The position numbers were made by a program. Shown piece by piece: positions 6,001 to 9,000 of a stretch of 17,758 nt of DNA. The first letter of the stretch is position 1. Each line of letters begins with the position of its first letter. The DNA is from a virus (Duplodnaviria > Heunggongvirae > Uroviricota > Caudoviricetes), in IMG/VR virus record IMGVR_UViG_2657245634_000007, positions 1 to 17,758 of that record; one strand, written 5' to 3'.

Positions 6001-9000
6001 GGGTTAACACAAGATGCGTTGGCTAAAAAAGCTGGGATCACCAGAGTTGCAATCAGTAAAGCCGAGCAAGGCCTTACAAAAAGTTTCAACGGTGACACCC
6101 TTTTTAAAGTTGCAGCTGCACTGCGGTGTTCACCGCAGTGGCTTCAGAACGGAGATGAAAAAGATAAGCATTGGGAAAATAATGTTAAGAGCTGCCCACA
6201 GAGAGACACAGCACACTCTTACCCTGTAATTAACTGGGTTCAGGCAGGATTATTCGCAACTTCTGGTGATGACTACAACATGTATGATCAGGATAATTGG
6301 AGGCATTCTGTAAAATACGCTGGTGAGAGGGGGTTCTGGCTGGAAGTGCACGGAGACTCAATGACTTCGCCCGTAGGAATAACATTTCCTGAAGGAATGT
6401 CGATCCTTGTCAACCCAGATAAAGAAGTTTTTTCAGGGTGTTACGTCATCGCCAGAAAAAAATCCACCAATGAAGCAACATTCAAAAAATATATTTCTGA
6501 CATGGGAAAGGCGTTTCTAAAGCCCCTTAATCCACAATATCCAATCATAGAAATGGACAATGATTGCGAAATAGTAGGTGTTGTGGTTGATGCCAGGTGG
6601 GATATTTTCTGACCAGACACAAAACACAAAACACAAAAAGAAACCAAAGTATCAAAAATCACTTGCCACACCTTGATACCTTAGTTACCATAAAACAAAG
6701 TTCGTAACTGAGGTATCATCTCATGATCAATAAAGCTACAACTCTTGACTGTCTCGAAGAACTGAAAAACCTCGGCAGCCTCATTACACTAATAGCAAAA
6801 GCAACACCTGATGCTACGCTCTCTAGCGATATAGAGTCATGCGCAGGGCTGGCATGGGATATGACAAATAGCATATCCAGAAAGCTATCGTCAGCAATGC
6901 TTTTACAGAATAAAAATTCTGCAATCAACAACCGTCTTCGCACCCAACGCGAAGCCTGCGGCTTAACAACCGCCGAACTCGCCAGGCTGCTCGATCTCGA
7001 TGAAGAAATTATCATCCAGTGGGAGAGCGGAGAGTATGAACCAACTATCAGTATGCTTATCCCACTGGCAAATATTCTTGGCTGCGATCCGATGTGGCTG
7101 TTAACTGGTAAACCAACAGGTGGGGATACTTGCGCATGAAAAACTGTGATGCTTACCATATTTGTCTCATTGGTGAATTGCTTGATTTCATACAAAAAAG
7201 CACTGCGCGCAATAATAAAAATATAACATATGGTGATCTGGTAATAATTTCAGAGGATATAAAGAGCATCGCTCTTAAATTCAAGAGCGACGCGAGTATT
7301 GATGACGCTATTTACGCTTATCTTGCGAAAATAATTGACGGATCCAAAATCCAGCCTCTGGATGAACCTCGTCAGTGAAAAACTCCTTTGATGAAGATGA
7401 GAACTGCTTCATAAACTTTACTTTATCTTCAGGTGAAACTACCTGACGAATTAATGCGGAGATAGCAACTTTGTGCCAAATTAATTCTTTTTTGAGTTCT
7501 GAAATCTCTTTTTCGAGTTGCTCTGCGTTAATCATTTATCCTCCATTGAGAGCTGAATTGAAAATGGGGACCAACACGCGGCTACGTGTGGTCGTGCGCC
7601 GGACACGGATAAGCATCCGGTAACTGATTATCAATCATTGCGGAAACAGTCTCAATATGAAAACACTTCTGAGACTCGCTATATAGCAGGACATATAAGT
7701 CAGCTGAGGAAGCCATGAAAAAGTTCGAAAACATAACTGTTCTCCATGTTGATGACTTTGATTATACAAACCCGGAACTTCTCCCGGAGGTTGTAAAGGC
7801 AATAGATGTTGCCGATATAGTGATTAGAGAAAAGAGAATTGTCAAAAACAGGCTCGCATGCACTTCAGGAGCAATGACAGAAACAACCTCACAGCAAGAT
7901 AATTACGAAGGCATTTGTCTGGAGCCTGATTCATTTGCGGTAAATGTTTATCATTTATTGCATGCAACACAGGTATTACATATGTCCAGTAATCACGAAA
8001 CGAAAACACTCGGCAGCGAAATTCTGAGTTTTGCATGTGAGTATACAAAAGCTGCTGCCGAAAAAGAATTAGCGCAATAACAACAAATATGCCCTGAACG
8101 TTTATTGCGGTTTTATCGCCGGGGATTGTTACAACCTTAATCCACAGGAGGCTTTATTGTGACTTTTATAAAGAATATGGCATCACACAAGACCGCCTGC
8201 CTTATTGCACAATACGGTGAAAATTACATGCATATTGCCTGCTTATTTCTGCGTAAAGCATACGGGAGATAATAATGCATCAGAAAACAGCAGAACACGA
8301 ACAAACCAGAGTATTGCTGACCATCAAAAACGGGAAAGTAATATTCATTCGCCATGTTCATGACGATGAACTTGTAGGAACTCTTTCAACATTCCTGTTT
8401 ATTGCAGAAAGGGCAGGATATGACGTTATTGCACCAGCAGATGAAGATGAAGATGAAGATGAAGATGAAGATGAAGATGAGGAATAAATATCATGCAATA
8501 CGATGAATTCCAGGCTGAAGCAACAGCCAATGGTATACGAACTGGCAGTATGACGATTGATTATCACGACGCCATACGTCGTCTGGATGCCGGAGAATTC
8601 GATACTCCTAATGTGCGAGGTTTACGTATCCTTCAGTGTCTGGCGCAAGCCGACGAAGCAGGATTACTGGGTAAACTTCCGGTTGAGATGAAGGTTGCTC
8701 AGTGGCGATGGTTGTATGTGACGACATTCATCAACGAAGAAGAAGACAAGAACGGCACAATTGATATCTTGAATGAACACGGAACAACTGAACACGCCGT
8801 GGTATATAACGGGATGTATGGGTTTATGACGATATATCCCGGCCCCATTCGATTTGCCTTACAACAGTATATTGAATGGAATTTAATTCAAAAATACGGC
8901 GAAGCTGAAGGAATGGGAAGAGCGCTGTTTCTTTATCAGAAAATGCTCACTACTTCCCCTGATAAAGGTTTCATTCTTTCAGATATGGGTCGAGAAGGGC

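What the first reader, a model, noticed from the sequence alone, without database searches (positions are those of the whole stretch)
6723..7535. Three-gene cassette at the rexAB-equivalent position: HTH-XRE protein, coupled 80-aa ORF, and convergent overlapping 75-aa ORF
Directly after the repressor gene and the pL-like control region lies a 138-aa protein with a C-terminal XRE helix-turn-helix and an unrecognised N-terminal domain. An 80-aa ORF is translationally coupled to it (ATGA). A 75-aa minus-strand ORF with a strong SD overlaps the last 71 bp of the 80-aa ORF. Regulator plus small coupled partner plus antisense overlap is the architecture of toxin-antitoxin and abortive-infection modules, and this locus is where lambda carries rexAB.
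Basis: partly seen in the sequence, partly recalled or inferred. Interest (0 to 1): 0.6.

Follow-up and report, generated by a model that had tools for sequence, protein, structure and literature searches.

The report
Prophage regulator plus inserted convergent gene pair
The three genes exist, but they are a core phage regulator gene plus a separately inserted 579-bp accessory cassette carrying two small facing genes of unknown function, one of which uses a control leader shared by a large share of E. coli prophages with many different small genes behind it.

Summary
The window holds a 138-aa XRE-HTH gene (6723-7139), an ATGA-coupled 80-aa ORF (7136-7378) and a convergent 75-aa ORF (7535-7308) that overlaps it by 71 nt. 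Both small ORFs show frame-specific excess of synonymous change (p=0.004 and p=0.006).

The three-gene TA/Abi reading is only partly supported.
- **HTH gene:** it is a core early regulator of phiP27-like E. coli prophages. It occurs in many genomes without the two small ORFs. In relatives its ATGA junction couples it directly to the downstream 121-aa gene.
- **Small ORFs:** they lie on a 579-bp AT-rich segment (7144-7722) bounded by 9-bp repeats (CATGAAAAA). It is present in 54 of 5,426 complete E. coli genomes, always with both ORFs.
- **75-aa gene:** it looks like an autonomous unit, with a predicted sigma-70 promoter, a structured 5' leader and a terminator-like hairpin.
- **Leader:** the same leader occurs in hundreds of E. 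coli genomes (Qin/dicBF-type prophages). There it precedes at least 13 unrelated small ORFs, each paired with a co-varying C-terminus of a convergent ORF.
- **Position:** the cassette lies beyond the pL-like operators, so it occupies the N position, not the rexAB position.

No homology to any toxin, antitoxin or defence protein was found. My best inference is a lysogen-expressed moron paired with an early-operon partner, in the manner of SieB/Esc/sas. Function is untested.

The parts
5956..6612 (+). CI/LexA-type prophage repressor (context)
   Evidence: Pfam HTH_3 + Peptidase_S24; phrog_4 transcriptional repressor
6642..6718 (.). Three operator-like repeats (AACCAAAGTATCAA, TTGATACCTTAGTTAC, GTAACTGAGGTATCA) with promoter-like TTGCCA-17-TACCAT at 6663-6691: pL-like control region
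   Evidence: The same motif occurs in the repressor/cro-like divergent region 5862-5933. Promoter scan.
6723..7139 (+). 138-aa regulator: N-terminal helical hairpin (res 4-78) plus XRE HTH (res 72-128). One-HTH form of a widespread N-domain+HTH+HTH family.
   Evidence: Pfam HTH_3 at 43.8 bits. phrog_4739, with phrog_4836 on the HTH half. AF2 pLDDT 82. Foldseek best match is the P22 c2 / 434 Cro DNA-binding domain, TM 0.9. The 218-aa relatives P0012/13 carry the same tail KPT.GDTCA.
7135..7143 (.). Left copy of 9-bp direct repeat CATGAAAAA (contains the stop of the 138-aa gene and the start of the 80-aa ORF)
7144..7722 (.). 579-bp accessory segment absent from L015-type relatives; GC 39.4% against 48% for the window
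   Evidence: Alignment with L015 (GCGCATGAAAAAGTTCG). Composition. The 80/75 part is in 54/5426 genomes.
7136..7378 (+). 80-aa ORF, ATGA-coupled; predicted three-helix protein; orphan family
   Evidence: pN/pS 0.20, p=0.0036. phrog_23054. Only 5 clusters among 5.8 billion proteins. AF2 pLDDT 69 with no PDB fold match.
7308..7535 (-). 75-aa gene with strong SD (GGAGG at 7544-7540); orphan family; N-terminal 39 residues most conserved
   Evidence: pN/pS 0.24-0.31. PGAP WP_000606214.1. phrog_20080. 6 clusters only.
7266..7293 (-). Terminator-like hairpin (12 pairs plus T-rich tail), 15 nt after the 75-aa stop and inside the 80-aa ORF
   Evidence: Scan. The G.U to A-U change in the phiP27 allele keeps the stem.
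7536..7620 (-). Conserved 5' leader of the 75-aa gene: hairpin 1 (7620-7599), hairpin 2 (7593-7569), then an anti-SD element (around 7569-7563) able to pair with the SD
   Evidence: Minus-strand fold z=-2.39, plus strand z=-0.08. Present in hundreds of E. coli genomes. Consensus structure with an anti-SD:SD helix and one covarying pair.
7627..7655 (-). Sigma-70 promoter-like site TTGAGA-17-GATAAT (10/12), best in the region; would start transcription at about 7620
7714..7722 (.). Right copy of direct repeat CATGAAAAA (contains the start of the 121-aa gene)
7715..8080 (+). 121-aa gene. In relatives it is coupled directly to the HTH gene. Its C-terminal half is a stand-alone paralog of the N-domain of HTH proteins in sister prophages.
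   Evidence: L015-17 synteny. Full-length homologs at 31-61% identity. hhalign 98.5%, E=1.9e-15.

Best explanation
The locus has two layers.

**Layer 1 (shown).** The 138-aa protein is the first gene of the early-left (pL-like) operon of a phiP27-like prophage. It is a short, one-HTH form of a widespread regulator family: a variable helical N-domain followed by one or two P22-C2/434-type HTH domains. This gene always follows the repressor. In relatives it is ATGA-coupled to the 121-aa gene.

**Layer 2 (shown).** A 579-bp AT-rich segment (7144-7722) sits exactly in that junction, between 9-bp repeats. It carries two orphan genes facing each other.
- The 80-aa gene took over the coupled start codon, so it can only be made when the early-left operon is transcribed.
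- The 75-aa gene has its own predicted promoter, a structured leader and a terminator-like hairpin on the opposite strand.
- The same leader precedes many unrelated small genes in Qin/dicBF-type prophages. Each is paired with a co-varying convergent partner.

**Mechanism (inferred).**
- The 75-aa protein is produced from the repressed prophage, as a moron.
- When the early-left operon fires, rightward transcription runs antisense through the 75-aa unit and also makes the 80-aa protein.
- Together these silence or neutralise the 75-aa function.
- This is the logic of an exclusion or host-modulating gene with built-in self-relief, as in P22 sieB/esc/sas.
- The HTH protein regulates phage genes independently of the pair.
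For: **Identity of the element**
- 94% identical to phage phiP27 and 100% to E. coli O111:H21 strain 15A.

**HTH gene is independent of the pair**
- Found without the pair in L002, L008, L009 and L015-17.
- The family is abundant: P0084 on at least 1000 contigs, P0051 in 537 blocks.

**The segment is a discrete unit**
- Precise junction and 9-bp repeats.
- Low GC.
- The pair always occurs together, in 54 of 54 genomes.
- Both ORFs are under purifying selection in their own frames.

**The 75-aa gene looks autonomous**
- Minus-strand promoter (10/12 match) and a terminator-like hairpin straight after the 75-aa stop.
- The leader folds well only on the minus strand.

**The leader is shared with variable cargo**
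- It abuts the ATG of at least 13 unrelated ORFs.
- The convergent partner has a conserved N-terminus (MEFKDLP...) and a C-terminus that changes with the cargo. The 3' ends overlap by 0-44 nt.
- The anti-SD:SD helix is conserved, with one covarying pair.

**Precedents in the literature**
- Genes antisense to lytic operons with their own promoter are typical morons (PMC7067206).
- P22 sieB is controlled by the antisense sas RNA and by Esc (PMC12197685, PMC7067206).
Against: - Promoter, terminator and leader function are consensus or fold predictions only. There are no expression data.
- Nothing shows that the 75-aa or 80-aa proteins interact, are toxic, or affect phages.
- Their co-occurrence, and the X-Y co-variation elsewhere, could reflect physical linkage within one swapped DNA segment rather than function.
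- The selection signal rests on about 13-16 substitutions and essentially one deep allelic split.
- The direction of the event is not resolved: it could be an insertion here or a deletion between the 9-bp repeats in relatives.
- No terminator is predicted between the repressor gene and the 138-aa gene. Read-through could therefore express the 138/80 genes in lysogens, which would weaken the on/off logic.
- In this window's own leader the anti-SD has one mismatch.
Confidence: 0.55

Rival explanations
1. One reading: one three-gene toxin-antitoxin or abortive-infection module. The HTH protein is the antitoxin/autoregulator, the coupled 80-aa protein is its toxin (or the reverse), and the antisense 75-aa gene is a third component.
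For: - ATGA coupling and co-direction of the 138- and 80-aa genes.
- Weak, sub-threshold HTH similarity to HipB, MqsA and Y4mF-type antitoxins.
- TA modules (relBE) occur at the corresponding place in Qin-like prophages.
Against: - The HTH gene is retained without the 80-aa ORF in most relatives.
- The coupling signal belongs to the HTH/121-aa junction.
- The HTH-coding DNA is shared at 92-100% identity by prophages with different downstream content.
- There is no toxin homology in Pfam, NCBIfam, PADLOC or PDB.
Confidence: 0.1
2. Two unrelated passengers. The 75-aa gene is an ordinary moron with a host-directed or unknown role. The 80-aa ORF is a separate early gene, or a tolerated by-product of the insertion. 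There is no functional link between them or with phage defence.
For: - Both are orphans with no informative homologs.
- Linkage alone can explain their co-occurrence in a 579-bp segment.
- The many unrelated cargo ORFs behind the same leader have no known function.
Against: - The 80-aa frame shows purifying selection.
- The same convergent, 3'-overlapping pairing with partner-specific C-termini recurs for more than 10 cargo families. That is unexpected for unrelated passengers.
Confidence: 0.25
3. The 80-aa protein is a modulator of the HTH regulator, a SinI-like partner of its helical N-domain. The cassette would then tune the lysis-lysogeny circuit rather than act on other phages.
For: - Translational coupling to the regulator.
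- Both are predicted all-helical.
- In sister prophages a stand-alone paralog of the regulator's N-domain is encoded just downstream.
Against: - hhalign finds no similarity between the 80-aa family and any N-domain type or the stand-alone domain (probability below 1%).
- The same 80-aa gene occurs with at least three different N-domain alleles: window, L007/L013, L011/L020.
Confidence: 0.1

Closest known systems
Phage morons (independent promoter-gene-terminator units inserted between phage genes)
   Same: - Presence/absence polymorphism with a precise junction.
- Lower GC than the surroundings.
- Predicted own promoter and terminator.
- Orientation antisense to a lytic operon (PMC7067206, PMC3594210).
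   Different: - The segment carries a second gene on the other strand that borrows the resident operon's coupled start codon.
- The moron's leader is shared with many different cargos.
P22/lambda sieB-esc-sas superinfection exclusion locus
   Same: - A lysogen-expressed gene lies in the early-left region.
- Its mRNA is opposed by antisense RNA made by early-left transcription, giving the phage relief from its own exclusion (PMC12197685, PMC7067206; orientation details from my own knowledge of Ranade and Poteete 1993).
   Different: - No sequence similarity to SieB.
- The 75-aa protein has no hydrophobic segments.
- The candidate relief factor is a separate convergent gene, not an internal start.
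- No exclusion phenotype is known.
Lambda rexAB
   Same: Accessory genes next to the prophage repressor gene.
   Different: - rexAB lies between cI and oL/pL and is co-transcribed with cI.
- Here three operator-like repeats and a promoter-like site separate the repressor gene from the cassette.
- No matches to RexA/RexB families.
Type II toxin-antitoxin modules with XRE-HTH antitoxins (HipBA, HigBA, MqsRA)
   Same: A small HTH protein translationally coupled to a small partner gene.
   Different: - The partners do not co-occur across genomes.
- No toxin homology.
- HTH matches to these families are below their cut-offs.
ydfA-ydfB-ydfC segment of the Qin dicBF operon
   Same: - The 75-aa gene's leader is homologous to sequence between ydfC and dicF (K-12 keeps a truncated copy, L010 2603-2636).
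- In O157, E24377A and others the full leader drives a minus-strand ORF convergent with a ydfB-like ORF.
   Different: - Different phage backbone: a phiP27-like regulator instead of DicA/YdfA.
- Different cargo proteins.
- The papers read on the dicBF operon describe ydfABC as uncharacterised and mention no antisense gene.
SinR/SinI-type regulator plus stand-alone oligomerisation-domain antagonist (B. subtilis)
   Same: In sister prophages the HTH regulator's helical N-domain has a stand-alone paralog, the C-terminal half of the 121-aa protein, encoded immediately downstream.
   Different: - Domain order is reversed.
- This window's own N-domain type shows no detectable similarity to the stand-alone domain.
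- No interaction data.

Membership tests
Type II toxin-antitoxin module | Two adjacent co-directional, usually coupled small genes | tested here: met
   ATGA overlap at 7136-7139
Type II toxin-antitoxin module | The two partners co-occur as a unit across genomes | tested here: not met
   The HTH gene occurs without the 80-aa ORF in L002, L008, L009 and L015-17. The cassette is in 54 genomes. Sequence from the HTH-gene-to-leader query matches 1,168 genomes, though most of those matches cover only the leader.
Type II toxin-antitoxin module | Toxin or antitoxin belongs to a known TA family | tested here: not met
   Pfam, NCBIfam, PADLOC and PDB give only generic HTH matches below family cut-offs.
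Type II toxin-antitoxin module | Toxicity of one partner neutralised by the other | not testable with these tools
   Needs expression experiments.
Lambda RexAB-type exclusion | Located between the repressor gene and oL/pL and co-transcribed with the repressor | tested here: not met
   Operator-like repeats and a promoter-like site at 6642-6718 lie between the repressor gene and the cassette.
Lambda RexAB-type exclusion | Homology to RexA/RexB | tested here: not met
   No such hits in Pfam, PHROGs or PADLOC.
Moron | Extra DNA present in some but not other closely related phages, with a precise junction | tested here: met
   579 bp between 9-bp repeats, compared with L015.
Moron | Own promoter and terminator | tested here: inconclusive
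   Consensus matches only: TTGAGA-17-GATAAT at 7655-7627 and the hairpin at 7293-7266. No transcript data.
Moron | Base composition differs from the neighbours | tested here: met
   39.4% GC against 46.5% for the 138-aa gene and 48% for the window. The 121-aa gene is also 39.7%.
Moron | Expressed from the repressed prophage | not testable with these tools
   Needs RNA-seq of a lysogen.
SieB-type exclusion gene | Gene antisense to the early-left operon with its own promoter | tested here: met
   Orientation is shown; the promoter is predicted.
SieB-type exclusion gene | Sequence similarity to SieB / membrane protein | tested here: not met
   No family hits. No hydrophobic segment in the 75-aa sequence.
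XRE (Cro/C1-type) HTH regulators | HTH_3 domain above the Pfam threshold and a five-helix fold | tested here: met
   43.8 bits against 23. TM 0.90 to P22 c2 3jxb.
Lambda CII | Homology to CII and position right of cro | tested here: not met
   Only a PHROG label 'CII-like regulator' for phrog_4836. No Pfam CII hit. The gene lies on the other side of the repressor.
SinR/SinI-like regulator-antagonist pair | Stand-alone paralog of the regulator's oligomerisation domain encoded nearby | tested here: inconclusive
   Met for N-domain types of sister prophages (hhalign 98.5%). Not detectable for the window's own N-domain (0.1-5%) or for the 80-aa ORF.

The most novel reading that the evidence does not exclude
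The 80-aa/75-aa pair is one member of a large, undescribed class of polymorphic two-gene cassettes in E. coli lambdoid prophages. One gene is a small lysogen-expressed effector behind a conserved, SD-sequestering leader. The other is a cognate, partner-specific neutraliser encoded convergently in the early-left (pL/dicBF) operon. Together they would form an exclusion-plus-self-immunity (or toxin-immunity) system with many specificities. The uncharacterised ydfB/ydfC region of Qin would be a decayed copy.
Probability: 0.3. Interest if true: 0.75.

Novelty: new variant of a known kind. Interest (0 to 1): 0.5.

Why it matters
- **A testable function.** If the pair works as inferred, it gives a testable function to a small-gene hotspot. 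The conserved leader occurs in hundreds of the 5,426 complete E. coli genomes, including several O157:H7 prophages and the long-uncharacterised ydfB-ydfC region of the dicBF operon.
- **A search handle.** The leader can be used to harvest many cargo/partner pairs at once.
The region should not be treated as a three-gene TA module. The HTH protein should be studied as a core regulator of phiP27-like, Stx2e-type prophages.
- **Annotation.** The 80-aa ORF and the full 121-aa ORF are missed or truncated by current pipelines.

Tried and rejected
1. **Family searches.** Pfam, NCBIfam and PADLOC scans of the 80- and 75-aa proteins gave nothing above noise.
2. **Rfam.** At gathering and at E<=10 it found no RNA family in 6600-8300, only C4 and isrK elsewhere.
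3. **Solved structures.** PDB sequence searches and a Foldseek search of the 80-aa model found no relatives. The 138-aa model matched only HTH domains.
4. **Paralogy idea.** I suspected that the 80-aa protein and the window's own N-domain are paralogs of the 121-aa C-terminal domain. hhalign probabilities were 0.1-5%, so I rejected this.
5. **NETELKH module.** A visual resemblance between the 80-aa protein and the 'NETELKHVIALLLEDAK' module of Qin-type convergent ORFs was not significant by hhalign or hmmsearch.
6. **phiP27 frameshift.** The frameshift in the 75-aa ORF of the phiP27 record could be read as evidence against coding. It is private to that record, because L013 with the same allele is intact.
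7. **PsrA/PsrB.** These are AraC-type proteins and therefore irrelevant.
8. **Genome-wide scan.** The genome-contig scan with a 16-mer from the leader was swamped by chance matches in high-GC genomes. Only E. albertii was relevant.
9. **Literature.** Searches on phiP27 and the dicBF operon found no description of the leader, the antisense ORFs or the HTH family.
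Full report
**What the window is.** Region 5638-8200 is 94% identical to Stx2e phage phiP27. Region 6613-7714 is 100% identical to a prophage of E. coli O111:H21 strain 15A. Oriented by phiP27's annotation, the minus strand left of about 5850 holds the cro-side early genes. These include Rha/Ash-type regulators and, further on in phiP27, DnaC- and DnaB-like genes. The plus strand to the right runs towards the putative integrase ORF (13197-14510, the positional match of phiP27 int). 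The repressor (5956-6612; HTH_3 + Peptidase_S24) is transcribed rightward. The finding therefore lies on the repressor-distal, 'early-left' side.

**Checking the observation.** The three ORFs, the ATGA overlap (7136-7139), the strong SD of the 75-aa ORF and the 71-nt overlap (7308-7378) are all present. The intergenic region 6613-6722 holds three copies of a motif (CAAAGTATCAA / TTGATAC). The same motif occurs three times between the repressor gene and the divergent 69-aa gene. A promoter-like TTGCCA-17-TACCAT overlaps one copy. It also means the cassette lies after the operators, at lambda N's position. rexAB lies between cI and oL and shares cI's transcript.

**Are the small ORFs genes?**
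- Both families are tiny: 5 and 6 clusters among 5.8 billion proteins, all from E. coli.
- PGAP and the phiP27 record omit the 80-aa ORF.
- I compared the window with ~91-95% identical alleles (phiP27, L013, L011).
  - In 7139-7306 the 80-aa frame has 7 synonymous and 6 non-synonymous changes, giving pN/pS 0.20. The other five frames give 0.62-1.45 (Fisher p=0.0036).
  - The 75-aa frame gives pN/pS 0.24-0.31 (p=0.006-0.016).
  - In the overlap the 75-aa frame looks more constrained (0.26) than the 80-aa frame (0.74).
- The phiP27 record has one extra T that frameshifts the first 18 codons of the 75-aa ORF. L013, with the same allele, lacks it.
- I conclude both ORFs are probably coding. The caveat is that the data amount to one deep split.

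**The HTH protein is not part of the cassette.**
- *Structure.* AF2 (pLDDT 82) predicts an N-terminal helical hairpin (helices 4-27 and 31-78) followed by a five-helix XRE domain. The best structural matches are the P22 c2 and 434 Cro DNA-binding domains (TM 0.9).
- *Homologs.* They are abundant in E. coli prophages, with more than 150 clusters.
  - Most are 216-231 aa with two HTH domains.
  - 218-aa forms with the window's own N-domain end in the same tail (…CDPMWLLTGKPT.GDTCA).
  - The 138-aa protein is therefore best read as an in-frame one-HTH derivative (inference).
- *Mosaic structure.* The N-domain occurs in at least 8 sequence types. In the four combinations examined, each N-domain type sits next to a different repressor. 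The HTH-coding DNA (from 6936) stays 92-100% identical across these prophages. The operators differ between immunity types while the HTH does not. The protein's target is therefore probably not the immunity operators (inference).
- *Independence from the small ORFs.* RIVM_C037166-type prophages replace 7111-7627 with 160 nt and have a 166-aa HTH protein without either small ORF. O103:H2 12009 has a 230-aa form followed directly by a 66-aa gene. In the very common P0051 type the HTH gene's stop overlaps (ATGA) the start of the 121-aa gene.

**The cassette.**
- Alignment with L015 shows GCGCATGAAAAAGTTCG there. The window has GCGCATGAAAAA-[579 bp]-GTTCG, with CATGAAAAA at both ends (7135-7143 and 7714-7722).
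- The 80-aa ORF therefore inherited the start codon and the coupling of the 121-aa gene.
- The segment is 39.4% GC, against 48% for the window.
- Its two-ORF core occurs in 54 of 5,426 complete E. coli genomes, always entire, in two allelic groups (>=99% and ~91%).
- It is found next to at least four N-domain/repressor types.
- I cannot tell whether the event was an insertion here or a deletion between the repeats elsewhere.

**The 75-aa transcription unit.**
- The best promoter match in 5600-8300 is on the minus strand: TTGAGA-17-GATAAT at 7655-7627 (10/12).
- A 12-bp terminator-like hairpin with a T-rich tail (7293-7266) follows the 75-aa stop by 15 nt. One substitution in the other allele converts a G.U pair to A-U.
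- The 98-nt stretch 7622-7525, which spans the leader and the start of the ORF, folds into two hairpins on the minus strand (z=-2.39). It does not fold well on the plus strand (z=-0.08).

**The leader is shared; the cargo is not.**
- Segment 7535-7627 matches hundreds of E. coli genomes at 82-92% identity. About two-thirds of the evenly sampled rows from the 1,171 matching records match only this segment.
- In O157:H7, E24377A and others it lies in Qin/dicBF-type prophages between a ydfA/ydfB-like region and dicF/dicB. It abuts the ATG of a minus-strand ORF that differs each time (101, 69 and 64 aa).
- A scan of viral contigs with the leader core returned 120 loci. In 56 of them the leader's SD is followed by one of at least 13 unrelated ORFs of 57-101 aa. 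The other 64 are mostly K-12-like copies without an SD-ATG.
- All cargo families are of unknown function, with one exception. One family reaches the Pfam GhoS threshold at 21.2 bits against 21.0; GhoS is a type V antitoxin.
- The convergent ORF in these loci has a conserved N-terminus of about 65 aa (MEFKDLP..QEMAA..VRSQL). Its C-terminus changes with the cargo family. The 3' ends meet or overlap by 0-44 nt.
- Across 22 distinct leaders:
  - hairpin 1 is invariant;
  - hairpin 2 exists in two unrelated sequence versions at the same place;
  - a CUCC(A/U) element just after it pairs with the (U/A)GGAG of the SD, with one covarying pair (13 A-U, 9 U-A).
- This suggests translation of the cargo is gated by SD sequestration (inference). 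The window's own copy has one mismatch in that helix.
- The papers I could read on the dicBF operon call ydfA/B/C uncharacterised and mention no antisense gene.

**How it most likely works.**
- *Shown:* the anatomy, the independence of the HTH gene, the unity of the 80/75 pair, and the shared leader with variable, partner-linked cargo.
- *Inferred:*
  - The 75-aa gene is expressed from the repressed prophage.
  - Early-left transcription, released when the repressor is inactivated, reads antisense across it. No plus-strand terminator is predicted there.
  - The same transcription makes the 80-aa protein.
  - The pair therefore behaves as a lysogen function with self-relief during the phage's own lytic growth.
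- Precedents are moron loci antisense to lytic genes (PMC7067206) and P22 sieB/esc/sas (PMC12197685, PMC7067206). I put about 0.55 on this overall picture. Confidence is high for the structural part and low for the functional part.
- *Rivals:*
  - unrelated passengers (0.25);
  - the 80-aa protein as a modulator of the HTH regulator (0.1).

**Comparison with known systems and novelty.**
- The locus fails the membership tests for type II TA (no co-occurrence, no homology), for RexAB (position and homology), for SieB (homology) and for CII.
- It meets the structural tests for a moron and, for the 138-aa protein, for XRE regulators.
- It is a new variant of a known kind: a moron-like unit carrying a convergent partner gene and a widely shared leader.
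- The most novel reading not excluded is that the leader marks a large family of polymorphic effector/neutraliser pairs (probability about 0.3).

**Verdict.**
- Interest is 0.5. The specific proteins are orphans without demonstrated function, but the shared leader/variable cargo hotspot is widespread, apparently undescribed and readily testable.

Noticed in passing
window 7715-8080; L009 3441-3641; HTH proteins P0084, P0090, P0053: The C-terminal half of the 121-aa protein is homologous to the N-terminal domain of the HTH regulators of sister prophages (hhalign 98.5%, E=1.9e-15). PGAP calls only the last 68 aa. The HTH gene and this gene are always neighbours, which suggests a SinR/SinI-like regulator/antagonist pair. 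Full-length 121-aa homologs exist at 31-61% identity, so the long ORF is real.
   Followed up: partly
window 6723-6935 versus 6936-7110: The N-domain of the HTH protein occurs in at least 8 sequence types. In the four combinations examined, each sits next to a different repressor. The HTH-coding DNA is 92-100% identical across these prophages. Mosaic breakpoints sit at about 6936 and about 7110, so the N-domain seems to belong to the immunity module.
   Followed up: partly
L002 3486-3650 (replaces window 7111-7627): An alternative 160-nt filling of the same site occurs in 165 E. coli genomes. It extends the HTH protein to 166 aa. Downstream of the same minus-strand promoter region it holds a 30-aa hydrophobic ORF (MIKMFACTLKGEAAIMSLLVLVLPQKSFAR).
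   Followed up: no
window 4090-4278, minus strand: Rfam C4 antisense RNA (82 bits) and isrK (62 bits) lie side by side. They overlap the 5' part of the 284-aa Ash/Rha ORF (3481-4335), which indicates a P1/P7-type immI-like antirepressor control region.
   Followed up: no
L010 (E. coli K-12 Qin) 2603-2636: K-12 keeps only a truncated copy of the leader (hairpin 1 plus an alternative hairpin 2, with no SD or ORF) between ydfC and dicF. ydfB looks like the conserved N-terminal stub (MEFKDLP-type) of the convergent ORF family.
   Followed up: partly
viral contig loci such as L075 (cargo MAKFTVRIELRD..., 94 aa): One of the cargo families behind the shared leader reaches the Pfam gathering score for GhoS, the type V antitoxin endoribonuclease (21.2 bits against 21.0).
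   Followed up: no
L001 (phiP27) about 7860-7965, equivalent to window about 7487: The phiP27 reference has one extra T in a T-run that frameshifts the 75-aa ORF, so its gene L09 is annotated in another frame. A modern genome with the same allele (L013) lacks the extra base. This is either a sequencing error or a private mutation.
   Followed up: yes
L013 3137-3831: In one genome an IS1 element has inserted into the 3' part of the 75-aa gene, leaving the 80-aa ORF intact.
   Followed up: no
L005/L006 725-1523: In Qin-type prophages a relBE toxin-antitoxin pair sits between the repressor-side gene and ydfA. This part of the early-left operon therefore does collect TA modules in other phages.
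   Followed up: no
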